IMG/VR virus record: IMGVR_UViG_3300023198_000559
Span: 15,996-79,995 of that record
Strand: one strand, 5' to 3'
From: a virus
DNA: 64,000 nt
Shown: positions 2,696 to 15,071 of the stretch, in pieces
Layout: every line of letters begins with the position of its first letter
Numbering within the stretch: the stretch's first letter is position 1
Translations under genes and position numbers: made by a program
The notes under the pieces: model-generated
The model's input: the letters and a program-made list of their open reading frames with translations, nothing else
What the model was told of the DNA's origin: nothing
The model's database searches: none

Positions 2696-3760
2696 TTATT
2701 GTTTAGTTAAACGGGCGTAGTCCTGGCTGGTCATTCTCTCTGGAAACTCTTCAAACATACTAGCACCTCCTATAAATCTAAGAGCTGCACGTTTATTTGT
2801 ATTTCCATTTCTATTCTTAAGAATGTGCGCGGACACGAACCATGATTTTAATTGTGTTATATCATATACTGATGTACCTACATTTACTGTCTCTACTTGG
2901 TATCTTACTGGATCCCATAGACCAACAATTACATTTGCATCCTTCGTAGTACGTTTACTATCTTCAAAGTCTCTAAGCATGGGAGTTTTCTGTCCGTGCC
3001 TTTGTCTTTGAATATCGGAGTTATCTGCATTGAATTGCTGGATAATTATAGGAGTGTGTTGACATATATTTCTAAAGGTTAAGGATATCTTAGATATTCT
3101 ATCAATAGACTGCTTGTATGATTGACCTTGTTCTGTTTCAGCTAAGTTAATTGTGTCAACAATGCCTACAGTTAATAACTGTGGATTGTTTAGAGTATAC
3201 TCTCCTAACCTAGAGACTGCCATCGAGCCATCATCTTTTGCAAATTTGCCAACCTTTCTATAATGAGTCAGTAAGACATCATGGTAGAAAGTAGGTGTTA
3301 TCTGATCTGCTACAACTATTAGTTTCTTTTCAAAATCTTCAAAATATTTTCTTTTACTCTCTACTAATTTCAGCTCCTCAGGTGTTAAGTAATAGCCTTT
3401 TCTAAAGCCCATTATCTTATCATATGGTATCATCCGTTTGTGATCTTTATAGATTTTCCGGATGATAGCATTAATCATATTCTCTGAGGAAGTAATCTCC
3501 ATACTAAAATCTATAAATTGTACGTCTAAAACACTGTTATCATTAATCTTCTTATAATAATCGTAAACAGCATACATATGTTGGTCCCGGGCGTATTTAG
3601 TCTTACCTACGCCAGTCTCCGCACCAATTAAATAGTACGTAGACCTTCGGGTTCCATATGTATACTCTGTAAGTTTAGGACAGTTCTCCATTGGAACACC
3701 AATATTCTTTCCGGACATTCCCTCAGCAATGAGGTCTATCGCTCCATCAAATATTGACAT
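2696..3760 (-). CDS. dnaB: DnaB-like (SF4) replicative helicase
   Basis: GAETGVGKT Walker A, FSME, IVDTINL, IIQQFN, RDFEDS, DANVIVGL, ILKNRNG. Confidence 0.85.
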   Translation of the reverse strand: MSIFDGAIDLIAEGMSGKNIGVPMENCPKLTEYTYGTRRSTYYLIGAETGVGKTKYARDQHMYAVYDYYKKINDNSVLDVQFIDFSMEITSSENMINAIIRKIYKDHKRMIPYDKIMGFRKGYYLTPEELKLVESKRKYFEDFEKKLIVVADQITPTFYHDVLLTHYRKVGKFAKDDGSMAVSRLGEYTLNNPQLLTVGIVDTINLAETEQGQSYKQSIDRISKISLTFRNICQHTPIIIQQFNADNSDIQRQRHGQKTPMLRDFEDSKRTTKDANVIVGLWDPVRYQVETVNVGTSVYDITQLKSWFVSAHILKNRNGNTNKRAALRFIGGASMFEEFPERMTSQDYARLTKQ

Positions 3761-4164
3761 TAATCTTCCCAAATAACTGGTTTAACTTCACGGTTTTCCA
3801 GGGCTGTTTCCCATACATTGTTCTCAAAGTAGTGTTTAATGGTTACGGGGTATTCTGTTTCTTTATAATACTTCTTAGTCACTTCGACTAATTCAGCTCT
3901 ACTTACTTTAGCAAGTACTCTTAAATACATCTTACCAATCTTGTCAGTAACATATTTTACAGTATACTTACCACCTGAAGGGGATATCACTTGAAATGGA
4001 ATCTCTATATCTACACAGAATTCTTTCAGTGCAGCTTTGGGAGATCCCATGTCTTCAGCGACAGCCTTAAGCTTATCAGTTAAGTAAAATACCCCACTAA
4101 TACTCTTTATAAGCTTATTTTTCTCCAGGTAATCTATTATTTGTATTTTACTTAATCCTTCCAT
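3760..4164 (-). CDS. Hypothetical protein
   Basis: 134-aa ORF, translationally coupled to the helicase. Confidence 0.6.
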   Translation of the reverse strand: MEGLSKIQIIDYLEKNKLIKSISGVFYLTDKLKAVAEDMGSPKAALKEFCVDIEIPFQVISPSGGKYTVKYVTDKIGKMYLRVLAKVSRAELVEVTKKYYKETEYPVTIKHYFENNVWETALENREVKPVIWED

Positions 4165-4346
4165 TATAAAATTCTAAGAAATTGATTTTCAGATTTGAGC
4201 ACGTAGTCATTGAAAGCATCTTGAAATTCTTGCTTTTTGTATACTACACTAAGCTCTTTAAATGTTTCATCTGATAAATCTATTACATCCTTTACTTTAT
4301 TTCCAACAGCTTTTGCTACTTCTGCATTTAATACATAATACTTCAT
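4164..4346 (-). CDS. Hypothetical protein
   Basis: 60-aa ORF with stop/start overlap. Confidence 0.55.
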   Translation of the reverse strand: MKYYVLNAEVAKAVGNKVKDVIDLSDETFKELSVVYKKQEFQDAFNDYVLKSENQFLRIL

Positions 4347-4353
4347 AATTCTA

Positions 4354-4854
4354 TTAATTTATAAAAGTTAATACTGTATGCAATAAAGTAATTAAAGAAA
4401 TACTAAATGCATACACTTCATACCAGTAAACAGGATTAGGCATTGTTTTTCTATATTTAACTGCAATTGCTAATCCCGCAAAAGCTAATACAAGAAGTGC
4501 CCAAGTATAAATTAAGCCTATAAATACTATTACACCTATCAGCATTACTGCTGAGGATATATAGTGTACAATTCCAGTAATTTTATCAAGGTACATGGCT
4601 GCAGCTCCAGTTAATATGGCGCCTATTCCAGAAGTATATAAAGCCCAGGAATGCTCACTACCATAATAGGCAGCAATCAATATTAAAAGGAGTCCGGATG
4701 TAAACATAAGTATACGAAACCAGTATCCTTTTCCTAATTCTCGTAAGGTGTAAAAACTACGTGATATAGAGTGTAAAACCCCATATTTCCACGTTACAAT
4801 TCCAACATAGCCTACAAAGAGGACTATTAACGCTACTGTCAGGTATAGTATCAT
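4354..4854 (-). CDS. Multi-pass membrane protein (DUF998-like)
   Basis: About 5-6 hydrophobic segments; SIS-x-F-Y and H-Y-x-S motifs. Confidence 0.55.
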   Translation of the reverse strand: MILYLTVALIVLFVGYVGIVTWKYGVLHSISRSFYTLRELGKGYWFRILMFTSGLLLILIAAYYGSEHSWALYTSGIGAILTGAAAMYLDKITGIVHYISSAVMLIGVIVFIGLIYTWALLVLAFAGLAIAVKYRKTMPNPVYWYEVYAFSISLITLLHTVLTFIN

Positions 4855-11008: not shown

Positions 11009-11128
11009 AAAGAATCAGATAGAGGCTATTGGGGCCTACTTCCGGAGCCAATATTCACTGTTTTATCTCTCAGTTCCCAATCTTATGGCATTCCATCAAC
11101 AGAGGCTTTTGCGCGTGTCTGATTCTTT
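11009..11128 (-). ncRNA. Unidentified stem-closed multibranch RNA directly 3' of the tmRNA
   Basis: 11-bp closing stem AAAGAAUCAGA/UCUGAUUCUUU around several hairpins. Confidence 0.4.
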
Positions 11129-11130
11129 AG

Positions 11131-11519
11131 TGGAGATGCAGGGAGTCGAACCCTGGTCCACAATGTATTAAATACACATGATATACAAGTTTGTAGGGCC
11201 AGCTCAACTGCTGACGGTCCACCACTTAGTCTTTTTATGAACTAAGAAACACTCTCTAGTTGTTATCGTATATAAATATACAGTGAGATGCAGAGTATTC
11301 TCGTACACGCTATTCTGTTTCTAGGTTAACGTAGAACCCAAGCACTCATGAAACCTAATTACTATTAAGCTGCAATACGCATCTCATACTGAGCTACAGG
11401 TGCAATAGAAATAACTTTCGTTTCTCCATTTATTAAAGTGATACGTTTTTAATGTGTCTCATATCATCACATACTTGCATGTAGTACTGAATATCATCAT
11501 GTCAAATCCAGTCATCCCC
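11131..11519 (-). ncRNA. ssrA: tmRNA (SsrA), 389 nt, tag (A)GETKVISIAPVAQYEMRIAA
   Basis: 5' GGGGAUGACUGGAUUUGAC; 3' GGACCAGGGUUCGACUCCCUGCAUCUCCA. 7-bp acceptor stem with G3-U wobble and A discriminator; PK1-like element; resume codon GGA at 11427 after AUAAAU; tag ends in AA then UAA UAG UAA. Confidence 0.95.
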
Positions 11520-12424: not shown

Positions 12425-12757
12425 TTAATATCCTGTATACTGATTAGTATACTGTTTAATTAATTTCTTAAGCCATCTAACTCGAGGCTTAATAAGATAT
12501 GGTTTGTAAAGAAATACACCAGTTGTAGTGATGTTCATCTCAATGTCACCATCAAAACTCTTGGGTGAATAGGTTATAAACTTATTATTAAGTCTATTTT
12601 GAATAAGAGTAAATAACATACTAGCTTGCATATCATTAATCTTACCTTCCCTTTTCATAGCATACACAGCAGTACATAGACCATCATATTTAGTTGGTCG
12701 TATACTAGGATGTGTAAACTCTTGTAATAGTAATTCTAGTAATCTTCTCATGGTCAT
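12425..12757 (-). CDS. Hypothetical protein
   Basis: ORF containing GLC and PRVRWL motifs; start approximate. Confidence 0.55.
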   Translation of the reverse strand: MTMRRLLELLLQEFTHPSIRPTKYDGLCTAVYAMKREGKINDMQASMLFTLIQNRLNNKFITYSPKSFDGDIEMNITTTGVFLYKPYLIKPRVRWLKKLIKQYTNQYTGY

Positions 12758-12864
12758 ATTAGCTTGATTTAGTTTGTACATTGATTTAAATGACATCCCC
12801 AAGTATTTTTACTCGGCTGTCCAAGTGCACTTGCGCTAAGACTGTGTTCTACTTGAGGATATTG

Positions 12865-12926
12865 TGCTGTATGGAGAGTCGAACTCCTAATATAGTATTC
12901 TAACTACATTATGCCCAAATTACAGC
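12865..12926 (-). ncRNA. Minimal tRNA-like element (no D-stem, 8-nt anticodon-position loop)
   Basis: GCUGUA...UACAGC-A acceptor stem, GGAG-UUCGACU-CUCC T-arm, AAUGUAG/CUAUAUU stem, UGGG linker. Confidence 0.6.
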
Positions 12927-12937
12927 GGTGATTAAGT

Positions 12938-14265
12938 TACAAGCTGAGAATGTGACTTGTATGTTATGATTATCTACCTTTTCAAGTATAATTCACACTT
13001 AGGTTTAACTAAGTACATAACATAGAGAGTTGATTACAACCATTTACTACTACTATTCATATAAACTTCAATTTCTGCAACCATCCTTGGAAGGACTCGC
13101 AGTGTTCCCACACTACTAGGTTAAACATACTTTATTCATTTCATCAAAGCTCCTTGCGGGTGCTAAGACAACTGTATCTTACAACAGTATAACTCTATTG
13201 TTGAATAATAGTCTACAGGCGTTGGGCTTTTCGAGTTTAAGATGAGCTTATTCAGCTTCTTTCTTTTAGCGAAATATAGTGAGATACAAGACGTCGACTG
13301 TAGTCTACATGCATGCTACTCTTGCGAGCAGTTTAGCTTGTTACGCCTTGTTGTAAGTTATCAGCTTACGGTGGATTAAGATGCTACTACAAGAGCACAC
13401 CCTAATTACTGACCACAACACTAATAGATTGATATTCTATTTTGCATCGTACCCTACACAGTTCCCTATTGCTATTTCTAGCTCAACTCCAGTCACCACT
13501 GGAATATACTCTCAGGTATTAACCCATTGAATATGTTATATGCATGCTTACATGGATTGGTATCAGTCCTGACACCAACGCTCGTCACCTTATTTCGAAG
13601 AATGACTTACTTTATACTCATCACTGAGTTTATCCTAAGGCTATAAGCAACCTTTTCTTAAATGCTTGGGAGCATAGTGTACACTACCTCCCTCGACCCT
13701 CCAGCGTAACCTGTACAAGCTATCTAGATAGGATTTCGGTCTTAAATATCTTAAGTTAATATATCTTACAGACAATTTGAGTTCTTGCCTATTATACTTT
13801 CAGTTACAGGTGAAACCCTGCATCTCAATACTTTCCATAGCTACATACTATCCAACATGTATCGCCACCTATAGCAGGTAGACGTAGGTTTCGAACCTAT
13901 ACGTAGAAGATATATTAACTCTCAATTACTCTTAGTGAGTAATGAGTTTAATGCTTAGGTAAGTATCTGGTGCGCTAGATGTCTTAGTAGGGCGTATTCC
14001 CATACCTTATACTTACCATTGTTACTCTTTAGTTGTACATAAGTCGTAACATCTTACGTTAGCACATTGCTTTTGTGTCCGGGTCTAGTGCTATCACAGG
14101 ACTGCAGTTTTTAATCTCACGGCCAGAAATAGAGGCACGTTACCTCTACCAACAGACAATGGTGCTCCACAACCTAATCAACACTCTTCAGTGTCTTTTG
14201 AATGCTTCTATGCTACCAATGAATATTCCTACTGCTCGTACAGAGCGTTCCGTAGGTCCAACCTA
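12938..14265 (-). ncRNA. Large ornate ncRNA, GOLLD-like 3' domain (5' boundary uncertain)
   Basis: No credible ORF; many GNRA hairpins and long-range helices on the minus strand; 3' hairpin ...CACAUUCUCAGCU and upstream motifs resemble GOLLD as recalled from memory. Confidence 0.6.
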
Positions 14266-14269
14266 GTAT

Positions 14270-14476
14270 CTATACAAAATGAGGGACTGAACCATGTTCT
14301 TCCAGGTAGTCACTTATCATCTTGTCGGCTCTCTCTTGTAGTATGATGTCTACATCCTTTACTACTTTGAGTATCACACGATCCATAACCTTATCAGGAC
14401 ACTTACCACTATTTATGGTAGCTGTCCTAATATGGTCAAGTTCGGAATTAGTAAATTGTTCTAAGAATCTCTTCAC
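14270..14476 (-). CDS. Hypothetical protein
   Basis: 68-aa ORF overlapping the upstream stop. Confidence 0.5.
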   Translation of the reverse strand: MKRFLEQFTNSELDHIRTATINSGKCPDKVMDRVILKVVKDVDIILQERADKMISDYLEEHGSVPHFV

Positions 14477-14745
14477 CTTCTTGTTCTTCTAAAGGTGCTT
14501 ATTCTTGTAATTAATACAGAGTCTTGTACAAGTTTCATATTACCAGCTAAGGTAATAAGTGTTGTATCTGACTCATAGTACTGTAATATGCCTAAACGTT
14601 GTTCATAGTCTATTACAGTATGAAATGCTACTTTAAGTAGCACTACGGGTTCTTTGGCTTTATATTTAGCCACTCTCTCACTCTTGGATGTACAAGCAGA
14701 TGCTAATGCAAGAGTAAGGATTAATATTACTAAAGTATTTCTCAT
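14473..14745 (-). CDS. Putative lipoprotein
   Basis: MRNTLVILILTLALASA-C signal peptide II / lipobox. Confidence 0.6.
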   Translation of the reverse strand: MRNTLVILILTLALASACTSKSERVAKYKAKEPVVLLKVAFHTVIDYEQRLGILQYYESDTTLITLAGNMKLVQDSVLITRISTFRRTRR

Positions 14746-14870
14746 AGTTTACTTTATAAACACTATCCAACATGAAAGTAATATAGATGTAACAGTAATA
14801 CTAATGAAGACTGTTTGTACTAACCACAATAATGCAGGTGTATTAATAATATGTTCAAGGATTCTATCTA

Positions 14871-15071
14871 TCATAATAGTTGTGGTGTAATTACTTTATC
14901 AAATTGTTCTTGAAGAGTTATATGAGTTACCTCATAAGCTGTCTCCTTGTAATGCTCTTTAATTAGCATGTCTAACTGACCAAGTGTATAGGCCAATAAT
15001 AGTAGATGCTCAGTTGTTATACTACGTTCTACTGTTACGAAGTATATCTTTATTTTAGTATTCTTATTCAT
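14871..15071 (-). CDS. Hypothetical protein
   Basis: 66-aa ORF co-oriented with the early arm. Confidence 0.45.
   Translation of the reverse strand: MNKNTKIKIYFVTVERSITTEHLLLLAYTLGQLDMLIKEHYKETAYEVTHITLQEQFDKVITPQLL

What the first reader, a model, noticed from the sequence alone, without database searches (positions are those of the whole stretch)
12938..14265. ~1.3 kb ORF-free giant structured RNA with a GOLLD-like 3' domain in a crAss-like phage
Seen: 1.33 kb with no credible ORF in an otherwise gene-dense genome. GNRA hairpins occur on the minus strand: UACUU-GAAA-AGGUA (12975-88), AGUGU-GGGA-ACACU (13101-14), CUGCUC-GCAA-GAGUAG (13316-31), GCUA-GAAA-UAGC (13471-82), ACUCA-GUGA-UGAGU (13616-29). 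There is a G-U-containing hairpin at 13557-78. Nested long-range helices: 14 bp (13754-67/13907-20), 9 bp (13958-66/14009-17), 9 bp (12960-68/13016-24) and 6 bp (13217/13343). Recalled from memory, not searched: the 3' end (GUAGUAAA ... GAAUUAUACUUGAAAAGGUAGAUAA ... CACAUUCUCAGCU) follows the motif order of the GOLLD 3' domain. GOLLD is a ~800-nt phage-associated RNA found near tRNAs and reported to form RNA-only cages. Inference: this is a divergent, extra-long GOLLD relative or a new giant ornate RNA class, expressed early with the tmRNA and the tRNA-like element.
Basis: partly seen in the sequence, partly recalled or inferred. Interest (0 to 1): 0.85.

Follow-up and report, generated by a model that had tools for sequence, protein, structure and literature searches.

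The report
Divergent GOLLD RNA in crAss-like phage
About 810 bases of the gene-free stretch encode a complete but very divergent relative of GOLLD, a known giant phage RNA that builds RNA-only cages; it extends this RNA to crAss-like phages but is neither a new class nor 1.3 kb long.

Summary
The 1.33 kb has no credible ORF under three genetic codes. All listed hairpins and helices exist on the minus strand. The contig is a crAss-like phage (MCP about 42% identical to Crassvirales).

The recalled GOLLD likeness is real. Rfam GOLLD, which models only the 3' domain, matches 12941-13325(-) end to end at 45.6 bits (E 2e-10). That is far below the gathering score of 150 and below canonical GOLLDs (286-333 bits).

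Two covariance models that I built from canonical GOLLD 5' domains give their best window-wide hits side by side and in order at 13662-13551 and 13548-13450(-). Both domains are therefore present, in an RNA of about 810 nt (about 13750-12941).

Four related lineages form a divergent subfamily; at least one (L138) is also crAss-like with the same gene order. In it, 64 of 115 predicted pairs show compensatory changes, against 7-14 in slid controls.

The rest of the stretch is separate. It holds a 187-nt T-loop-bearing element (13745-13931) and about 330 nt without significant structure. A close relative (L009) lacks the whole module. Expression could not be tested.

The scan has many GOLLD notes on other genomes, and another first-stage reading flagged this same stretch.

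Verdict: a new variant of a known kind, of moderate interest.

The parts
12941..13750 (-). GOLLD-like RNA, both domains, about 810 nt. The 5' end is approximate (13725-13765). The 3' end lies at the conserved terminal UCUCAGC motif.
   Evidence: Rfam GOLLD hit; custom 5'-domain models R1 and R2; subfamily alignment and covariation.
13551..13662 (-). 5' domain, segment A. It contains the hairpin GGUUGC-UUAU-AGCC, then AUAAAC, the GNRA hairpin ACUCA-GUGA-UGAGU (13616-13629), AUAAAGU, and two further hairpins.
   Evidence: Model R1, built from 27 canonical GOLLD 5' domains: 35.9 bits, E 9e-6, the best hit in the whole window on both strands with filters off. An nhmmer alignment shows the same motifs.
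13450..13548 (-). 5' domain, segment B, a multi-stem unit. It includes GUUGAG, the hairpin CUA-GAAA-UAG and CAAUAG (13466-13488), the counterpart of the conserved GNAA-loop hairpin of canonical GOLLD.
   Evidence: Model R2: 22.9 bits, E 7e-4, the best hit in the window. It abuts the R1 hit in the canonical order. Its stems covary (helices 10-13).
13286..13351 (-). Start of the 3' domain. Helix ACAAGGCGU (13351-13343) pairs with ACGUCUUGU (13294-13286) and encloses the hairpin CUGCUC-GCAA-GAGUAG (13331-13316). This is the counterpart of GOLLD P13/P14.
   Evidence: Helices 17 and 18: 100% and 93% of cells paired, 4 and 2 pairs with changes on both sides. In near relatives 13350 G>A turns a C-G pair into U-G.
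13212..13285 (-). A-rich variable linker, the counterpart of GOLLD J13/15. No tRNA lies inside it.
   Evidence: Rfam alignment. Its length varies among subfamily members. ARAGORN and Rfam find no tRNA here.
12941..13211 (-). Core of the 3' domain.
- Long-range helix 13211-13202/13059-13050.
- Long-range helix AUAGAG (13198-13193) with CUCUAU (13027-13022).
- Hairpins 13099-13116, 12997-13014 and 12975-12988.
- Helix 12960-68/13016-24.
- Terminal CACAUUCUCAGC.
   Evidence: Rfam GOLLD, model positions 1-416 of 416, 45.6 bits, E 2.3e-10. Helices 19, 20, 22 and 23 covary. Near relatives show compensatory changes.
13745..13931 (-). Separate upstream structured element. It is a multi-branch fold closed by a helix of 14 to about 23 bp, with a T-loop-like hairpin UAGG-UUCGAAA-CCUA. 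It is not a recognisable tRNA.
   Evidence: Minus strand -54.3 kcal/mol, z -4.7; plus strand -35.3, z -2.4. Conserved in near relatives up to 13931. No tRNA by Rfam or ARAGORN; the only relaxed ARAGORN call, with a 219-nt intron, is poor.
13932..14265 (.). Spacer without significant structure. On the minus strand it contains the hairpin UAGAGG-UAACGUG-CCUCUA (14130-14148) followed by UUUCU, a possible terminator of the upstream small ORFs.
   Evidence: z -0.67. Mostly diverged or skipped in near relatives except about 14115-14152. No Rfam hit.
12864..12925 (-). tRNA-like element beginning 16 nt after the GOLLD 3' end. It has a 6-bp acceptor-like stem, a long hairpin and a T arm GGAG-UUCGACU-CUCC. 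It has no D arm and no CCA.
   Evidence: Fold z -2.4. Not called by ARAGORN or Rfam tRNA. In canonical loci a true tRNA starts 18-24 nt after GOLLD (L019 and L026).
11128..11519 (-). Phage tmRNA on the same strand, 1.4 kb downstream.
   Evidence: Rfam tmRNA, 82.8 bits. ARAGORN gives the tag peptide.

Best explanation
What it is:
- Window 12941 to about 13750, minus strand, is the gene for a complete two-domain GOLLD-type RNA of about 810 nt.
- It belongs to a strongly divergent subfamily, marked by the motif GUAAGCAU in the 5' domain.
- The subfamily is found in a few environmental phage contigs. At least this phage and L138 are crAss-like and carry it at the same place, at the head of the leftward replication-side module, on the strand opposite to the exonuclease, terminase and portal genes.
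- It is an accessory module: a relative with 89% identical terminase has small ORFs there instead.

How it most likely works (inferred, not shown):
- It is transcribed rightward-to-leftward together with the flanking T-loop element, the tRNA-like element and perhaps the tmRNA.
- The tRNA-like element 16 nt downstream recruits RNase P, which sets the 3' end of the GOLLD RNA. True tRNAs sit in this position beside canonical GOLLDs.
- The released RNA folds into a 5' 'cap' domain and a 3' 'ring' domain and self-assembles into a homo-oligomeric hollow shell, as shown for GOLLD env-38 (a 14-mer).
- With the phage tmRNA and the tRNA mimics, it acts on the host translation apparatus during infection.

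My odds:
- Homologous to GOLLD with both domains: 0.9.
- Made as a discrete RNA of about 0.8 kb: 0.7.
- Forms a multimeric cage: 0.5.
- Its role concerns translation or tRNA: 0.3.
For: 3' domain: Rfam GOLLD matches end to end at E 2.3e-10.

5' domain:
- Two independent models of consecutive canonical 5'-domain segments give their top hits in 128 kb of searched sequence at 13662-13551 (35.9 bits) and 13548-13450 (22.9 bits).
- The two hits are adjacent, collinear and on the same strand. The next-best hits score 19 and 16 bits.
- Shared signature motifs have different stem sequences.

Bridging relatives:
- L100 scores 92 bits with Rfam GOLLD.
- L100 aligns with the window over the whole length.

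Covariation in the subfamily:
- 94% of cells are paired, against 74% in shuffles and 37-44% when partners are slid.
- 64 pairs have double changes, against 7-14 in slid controls.
- 0 of 500 shuffles reach the observed values.

Near relatives: compensatory changes in marine contigs 85-95% identical.

Context:
- Portal and terminase of L138 fall in the same PHROGs as the window's, with the same gene order.
- L100 has a tRNA-like element, then GOLLD, then a tRNA and a tmRNA.
- Canonical loci also hold tRNA arrays and tmRNA, with a tRNA 18-24 nt after GOLLD.

Cage formation, domain division and the tRNA and ribosome links of GOLLD come from Kretsch et al. 2025 (PMC12286853).
Against: - The Rfam score is less than a third of the gathering score.
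- A sequence-only profile of canonical 3' domains finds nothing in the window.
- Some loops that make tertiary contacts in env-38 are altered. The A-rich loop before the 3' end is a GAAA tetraloop here, and one inner hairpin aligns as an insertion or deletion. Cage formation and stoichiometry are therefore uncertain.
- The 5' end is not defined.
- No promoter or terminator stands out above chance.
- There is no expression evidence of any kind.
- The covariation rests on only four independent lineages, and the structure was derived from the same alignment.
- L084, another subfamily member, showed no crAss-like capsid gene in a search that the tool itself called uninformative.
Confidence: 0.8

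Rival explanations
1. The whole 1.33 kb (12938-14265) is one extra-long giant RNA. In this reading it is a GOLLD extended at its 5' end by a T-loop domain and further helices, or a new class that only borrows a GOLLD-like 3' domain.
For: - The whole stretch is ORF-free.
- The 187-nt element lies on the same strand and ends within a few bases of the estimated GOLLD 5' end.
- Near relatives conserve 12805-13931 as a block.
- No promoter or terminator separates the parts.
Against: - Both canonical domains are accounted for within about 810 nt.
- 13921-14275 is no more stable than shuffles, and near relatives diverge beyond 13931.
- The other subfamily members have unrelated sequence upstream of the 5' domain: a 122-nt tRNA-like RNA in L100 and AT-rich sequence in L084.
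- Hairpin 14130-14148 plus a U-rich tail looks like the end of the upstream ORF unit.
Confidence: 0.12
2. The GOLLD match is a chance or composition-driven hit. Under this reading the stretch is a decayed remnant of accessory genes or a non-functional spacer in a variable region.
For: - The score is below the Rfam gathering threshold.
- The genome search with RF02032 on the contig reported nothing.
- The 3' domain has z -0.23.
- The region is a replacement hotspot: L009 has small ORFs there.
Against: - Three independent models hit adjacent, collinear segments on one strand.
- Homologues in four other lineages keep the helices through compensatory changes.
- Near relatives show paired substitutions.
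- The conserved signature motifs are shared with at least 119 GOLLD loci.
Confidence: 0.03
3. It is a GOLLD homologue that has lost cage formation. It would then work as a monomer or small oligomer, for example as a scaffold or decoy for a host or phage protein, or merely as a processing platform for the neighbouring tRNA-like RNAs.
For: - The sequence is strongly diverged and several canonical loops are shortened or re-placed.
- L084 and L138 give no Rfam 3'-domain hit at E up to 0.01. L138 is cut by the contig end about 190 nt after the 5' motif.
Against: - The helical architecture of both domains is kept under selection.
- The conserved unpaired motifs (AUAAAC...AUAAAGU, GUUGAG...CAAUAG, terminal UCUCAGC) are retained. 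In env-38 such loops and junctions make the tertiary and intermolecular contacts (PMC12286853).
Confidence: 0.3

Closest known systems
GOLLD RNA (Rfam RF02032; Weinberg et al. 2009; cryo-EM of env-38 in Kretsch et al. 2025, PMC12286853)
   Same: - Size of about 800 nt, with a 5' and a 3' domain.
- 5'-domain signatures: AUAAAC, a GNRA hairpin, AUAAAGU; and GUUGAG, a GNAA hairpin, CAAUA.
- P13/P14-like hairpin, A-rich variable linker and long-range helices that enclose a multi-stem core.
- Terminal UCUCAGC.
- Phage-borne, beside tRNA-type RNAs and a tmRNA.
   Different: - 45.6 bits against 286-333 for canonical members and a gathering score of 150.
- No detectable sequence-profile match in the 3' domain.
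- Segment C of the 5' domain is shorter (about 124 nt against about 170).
- The A-rich penultimate loop is replaced by GAAA.
- No tRNA in the linker.
- The host phage is crAss-like rather than a Lactobacillales prophage, a mycobacterial tRNA array or a huge lake phage.
The divergent GOLLD subfamily found here in IMG/VR and JGI contigs (L100/L127/L162, L138/L160, L084/L157-L161/L164)
   Same: - Aligns over the full length, with about 62% identity to L100 in the 5' domain.
- Shares the marker GUAAGCAU and the short spacing between the two 5' motifs (164-169 nt against 175-192).
- Same synteny in L138 and L100.
- Sub-threshold Rfam scores.
   Different: - The window is the most diverged from L100 and L160.
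- It has a different upstream element: a T-loop junction instead of L100's 122-nt tRNA-like RNA.
- It has no U-rich tail after the 3' end.
ROOL RNA (phage-borne, forms an 8-mer cage)
   Same: A large ornate phage RNA near tRNA islands that forms RNA-only cages. It is a functional analogue of GOLLD.
   Different: Its sequence and fold are unrelated, and there is no Rfam match at E up to 10.

Membership tests
GOLLD RNA (RF02032) | Score at or above Rfam's gathering threshold (150 bits) for the 3'-domain model | tested here: not met
   45.6 bits, E 2.3e-10, model positions 1-416 of 416. Not reported at gathering level. Canonical loci score 286-333 bits and L100 scores 92.
GOLLD RNA (RF02032) | 3'-domain architecture: P13/P14 hairpin, variable linker, long-range helices around a multi-hairpin core, terminal conserved loop ...UCUCAG... 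| tested here: met
   Rfam alignment with few non-canonical pairs. Helices 16-23 are kept with compensatory changes. The P13 register was corrected by the subfamily alignment.
GOLLD RNA (RF02032) | 5' domain homologous to that of canonical GOLLD (not part of the Rfam model) | tested here: met
   R1 scores 35.9 bits (E 9e-6) and R2 scores 22.9 bits (E 7e-4). The hits are adjacent, collinear and the best in the window. The motifs are shared with at least 119 GOLLD loci. The last third of the domain (segment C) was not modelled.
GOLLD RNA (RF02032) | Secondary structure supported by covariation among homologues | tested here: met
   64 of 115 pairs have changes on both sides, and 0 of 500 shuffles reach the observed values. 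Slid controls give 7-14. Caveats: only four lineages, and the structure was derived from the same alignment.
GOLLD RNA (RF02032) | Phage or prophage location next to tRNA genes or tRNA islands | tested here: met
   crAss-like phage. tRNA-like elements flank it, and a tmRNA lies 1.4 kb downstream. No bona fide tRNA is present in the window.
GOLLD RNA (RF02032) | Homo-oligomeric (14-mer, D7) RNA-only nanocage | not testable with these tools
   Needs an in vitro transcript with mass photometry or cryo-EM. The intermolecular contacts of env-38 could not be mapped because its sequence was not on hand.
GOLLD RNA (RF02032) | Expressed as a discrete RNA, rising during lytic growth | not testable with these tools
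   No RNA run holding the sequence was listed. Only DNA contigs could be laid.
tRNA (RF00005), for the flanking elements 13745-13931 and 12864-12925 | Cloverleaf with acceptor, D, anticodon and T arms, recognised by tRNA models | tested here: not met
   No Rfam tRNA hit at E up to 10. ARAGORN finds none with default or relaxed settings, except one poor intron-containing call.
ROOL, OLE, RNase P, group I/II introns | Match to the Rfam covariance model | tested here: not met
   cmscan of 12700-14400 at E up to 10 returned only GOLLD and an insignificant DUF2693 RNA hit.

The most novel reading that the evidence does not exclude
The crAss-type GOLLD subfamily keeps the two-domain fold but has remodelled the loops that make the intermolecular bridges. 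It could therefore assemble into a shell of different stoichiometry or geometry from the 14-mer of env-38. It could be made as part of one processed precursor with the T-loop element, the tRNA mimic and the tmRNA. Such a phage-encoded 'translation take-over' RNA operon, with the tRNA-shaped RNAs as the cage's cargo or partners, would give the function-less GOLLD class a testable handle in an abundant phage order.
Probability: 0.2. Interest if true: 0.7.

Novelty: new variant of a known kind. Interest (0 to 1): 0.42.

Why it matters
GOLLD is one of the largest bacterial or phage non-coding RNAs. It forms a 14-subunit RNA-only cage, and it still has no known function.

- Detection gap. A subfamily this diverged scores a third or less of Rfam's threshold, so routine annotation misses it. 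GOLLD-type RNAs are therefore probably more widespread than catalogued.
- What selection keeps. The variant shows which features survive: the helical scaffold of both domains and a handful of unpaired motifs. It also shows which loops can change, which helps to separate fold, assembly and function.
- New host group. It places GOLLD in Crassvirales. No paper in the searched library mentions GOLLD together with crAss-like phages.
- Recurring neighbours. It again sits beside tRNA mimics and a tmRNA, which strengthens the link between GOLLD and translation.
- Limits. It does not reveal a new class or a new mechanism, and the scan has already flagged GOLLD loci in many other genomes.

Tried and rejected
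Searches that found nothing:
- The genome search with RF02032 on the window's own contig: no match at E up to 1, although cmscan finds one. I take this as a limit of that tool's first-look filter.
- The search for related loci with the neighbouring 125-aa ORF: no relative in IMG/VR.
- The search for homologous proteins gave one 75% identical relative on a 1.8-kb Logan contig.
- DNA polymerase relatives L001-L008 and terminase relatives L009-L012: none carries a GOLLD, by Rfam or by R1 and R2.
- Exact-pattern scans for near relatives in viral and metagenome contigs: nothing.
- blastn of the window region, L100 and a canonical GOLLD against deposited phages: nothing useful.
- Cellulophaga phage phi14:2, a cultured marine crAss-like phage: no GOLLD in its first 50 kb.
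- MCP search of the L084, L100, L138 and L157 records: nothing, and the tool called the result uninformative.

Expression:
- No RNA holder was listed for the stretch.

Rejected or weak results:
- L163 and L165 were chance hits of the subfamily pattern.
- A sequence-only nhmmer profile of canonical 3' domains finds nothing in the window. The 5' profile gives only E 0.05 and 1.2, though with telling motif alignments.
- The ARAGORN call at relaxed settings, a tRNA-Asn with a 219-nt intron, was rejected as a poor cloverleaf.
- The MFE-only long-range helix 13722-13705/13352-13334 crosses the covariation-supported P13 and is not conserved in register in L100 or L160. I do not rely on it.
- A crude all-against-all covariation screen of canonical 3' domains, meant to find the L20-J13/15 kissing contact, was too noisy to use.
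- The promoter and terminator scan was no better than shuffles.

Full report
**Setting.** The window is part of a 79,995-bp IMG/VR virus contig. Its terminase, portal and major head proteins fall in PHROGs 6681, 6547 and 11589. It has a 5,242-aa ORF. Its major capsid protein matches only crAss-like phages, with about 42% identity to Crassvirales from gut, Flavobacterium and Cellulophaga. The 'crAss-like phage' part of the finding is therefore correct. DNA contigs 85-95% identical to the stretch occur in marine metagenomes of one study.

**The observation.**
- Between 12938 and about 14060 there is no stop-to-stop frame of 60 aa or more under table 11. Table 4 and TAG=Q give only short frames with several recoded stops.
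- The minus strand folds at -365 kcal/mol and the plus strand at -300.
- Piece by piece, stability is uneven:

| Segment (minus strand) | z-score |
|---|---|
| 13745-13931 | -4.7 |
| 13326-13753 | -2.2 |
| 12938-13325 | -0.2 |
| 13921-14275 | -0.7 |

Thermodynamics alone would not have settled the question.

**Identity of the 3' part.**
- At Rfam's gathering thresholds the window shows only a tmRNA at 11128-11519(-).
- With E-value reporting, GOLLD (RF02032) matches 12941-13325(-) over model positions 1-416 of 416, at 45.6 bits and E 2.3e-10. No ROOL, OLE, RNase P or intron model appears at E up to 10.
- The Rfam model covers only the 3' domain. In env-38 the 5' domain is residues 1-420, the 3' domain 421-833, and the disordered linker 497-538 (PMC12286853).
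- Canonical GOLLD loci that I collected from IMG/VR score 286-333 bits. The window's RNA is therefore a very distant relative and fails the curated threshold of 150.

**The 5' domain.**
- From 27 canonical loci I aligned two consecutive segments of the 5' domain and built covariance models R1 (103 positions) and R2 (125 positions).
- Both were searched with filters off over the whole window on both strands. R1's best hit is 13662-13551(-) at 35.9 bits, E 9e-6 (runner-up 19 bits). R2's best hit is 13548-13450(-) at 22.9 bits, E 7e-4 (runner-up 16 bits).
- The two hits abut and lie in the canonical order, directly upstream of the 3' domain.
- The alignments show shared signatures with different stem sequences: AUAAAC, a GNRA hairpin, AUAAAGU; and GUUGAG, a GNAA hairpin, CAAUA. 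A pattern made of these two signatures hits at least 119 IMG/VR contigs.
- Both GOLLD domains are therefore present, and together they occupy about 810 nt (about 13750-12941), the normal GOLLD size.

**A divergent subfamily.**
- Among the pattern hits, L100 (identical to L162, and to L127 over its shorter cut extent), L138/L160 and L084/L164 are closest to the window. They have short spacing between the two motifs, and L100 is 62% identical over 314 nt. L157-L159 and L161 carry the same sequence as L084.
- A subfamily-specific pattern (GUAAGCAU marker) found no further lineages in viral, metagenome or GTDB contigs; L163 and L165 are chance hits.
- Rfam gives 92 bits for L100, and nothing at E up to 0.01 for L084 and L138. 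L138 is cut by the contig end about 190 nt after the 5' motif. R1 and R2 hit all subfamily loci and none of the GOLLD-less crAss-like relatives.
- On the five-sequence alignment A4, RNAalifold predicts 115 pairs, 64 of them with a compensatory change.
- The pair count gives 94.1% of cells paired, against 74.2% in shuffles and 37-44% with slid partners. It gives 64 double-change pairs against 7-14, and 0 of 500 shuffles reach the observed values.
- Caveats: there are only four independent lineages, and the structure came from the same alignment.
- The alignment corrects one detail of the Rfam alignment.
- Independent support comes from the marine near relatives. Paired substitutions occur at 13099/13116, 13104/13111, 13105/13110 and 12979/12984, and 13350 G>A turns a C-G pair into U-G.

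**What the rest of the 1.33 kb is.**
- 13745-13931(-) is a separate, stable multi-branch element closed by a long helix. It has a T-loop-like hairpin (GG-UUCGAAA-CC).
- Its minus strand is clearly favoured (-54.3 against -35.3 kcal/mol).
- It is conserved in near relatives up to 13931, beyond which they diverge.
- It is not a recognisable tRNA. The other subfamily members have unrelated sequence there; L100 has a 122-nt tRNA-like RNA.
- 13932-14265 is not significantly structured. Apart from a conserved hairpin at 14130-14148 followed by UUUCU, a plausible end of the upstream small-ORF unit, it is diverged in relatives.
- The 'extra-long' reading is therefore not supported.

**Context and mobility.**
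- L138 has portal and terminase of the same PHROGs as the window, and the same order: portal, terminase and exonuclease on one strand, GOLLD on the other.
- L100 shows exonuclease, then the tRNA-like RNA, GOLLD, tRNA-Arg and tmRNA.
- In contrast, L009 (terminase 89% identical, syntenic on both sides) has about 1.9 kb of small ORFs instead of window 12885-15067, and no GOLLD.
- Cultured phage phi14:2 has none either. The RNA is therefore an accessory module of some crAss-like lineages.
- Canonical GOLLD loci likewise sit among tRNA arrays and often near a tmRNA. A tRNA begins 18-24 nt after the GOLLD 3' end in L019 and L026. In the window a tRNA-like acceptor/T-arm element begins 16 nt after it.

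**Mechanism.**
- Shown: homology to GOLLD in both domains, a conserved fold, the strand, and the accessory status.
- Inferred: co-transcription with the flanking RNA elements, and 3'-end formation by RNase P at the tRNA-like element.
- Inferred: assembly into a homo-oligomeric shell, as in env-38.
- Inferred: a role connected with translation. GOLLD linkers sometimes hold tRNAs, and ribosomes bind GOLLD in pull-downs (PMC12286853).
- Because several contact loops differ (for example GAAA in place of the A-rich penultimate loop), I give cage formation only even odds.

**Novelty.**
- No paper in the searched library mentions GOLLD together with crAss-like phages.
- The scan has thousands of notes that mention GOLLD on other genomes, and another first-stage reading flagged this same stretch.
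- I class it as a new variant of a known kind. It is useful for defining the conserved core of GOLLD and for showing that Rfam's threshold misses a whole branch, but it is not a new class.

Noticed in passing
window 11128-11519 (-): Phage-encoded tmRNA (Rfam 82.8 bits). ARAGORN gives the tag peptide GETKVISIAPVAQYEMRIAA. It lies on the same strand, 1.4 kb downstream of the GOLLD-like RNA.
   Followed up: partly
window 12795-12925 (-): A tRNA-like element (acceptor-like stem, long hairpin, T arm; no D arm, no CCA) followed by a second stem-closed hairpin unit (12795-12860). Its 3' part is conserved in the GOLLD-less relative L009 (L009 1574-1734).
   Followed up: partly
window 12885-15067 versus L009 1734-3623: A replacement hotspot. 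The GOLLD module plus three small minus-strand ORFs (14270-14476, 14473-14745, 14871-15071) is swapped for unrelated small ORFs in a phage with 89% identical terminase.
   Followed up: partly
L166 (Cellulophaga phage phi14:2, NC_021806) 2904-4602: A 1.7-kb stretch from which all small ORF annotations were removed in 2020. It holds an unannotated tmRNA-like match at 4031-4502 (46 bits, gathering 47, E 4.5e-16). It holds no GOLLD.
   Followed up: partly
L002 18488-18749 and 6147-6277: A distant DNA-polymerase relative carries a group I intron (82.8 bits) and a 131-nt tRNA match, that is, a tRNA with an insertion.
   Followed up: no
L006 8187-8544: A tRNA immediately followed by a permuted tmRNA (66.9 bits) in a 92-kb crAss-like relative.
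   Followed up: no
L084, L157, L158, L159, L161: The same 870-nt stretch around the GOLLD variant (722 nt in L157, which is cut at the locus end) occurs in viral contigs of 93 kb and 55 kb, both rated complete, and in metagenome contigs of 112, 162 and 315 kb. This could reflect a prophage, a shared mobile module or different assemblies of one element.
   Followed up: no
L100 4571-4692: A 122-nt tRNA-like RNA with a good acceptor, D and T arms but a large insertion in the anticodon/variable region. It lies roughly 100 nt upstream of the estimated start of the subfamily GOLLD (Rfam tRNA 41 bits; ARAGORN does not call it).
   Followed up: partly
L018, L022, L023, L041: Canonical GOLLD loci of large phages lie within tRNA arrays of 10-30 genes, with a tmRNA 1-5 kb away. 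This is the same set of RNA neighbours as in the window.
   Followed up: no
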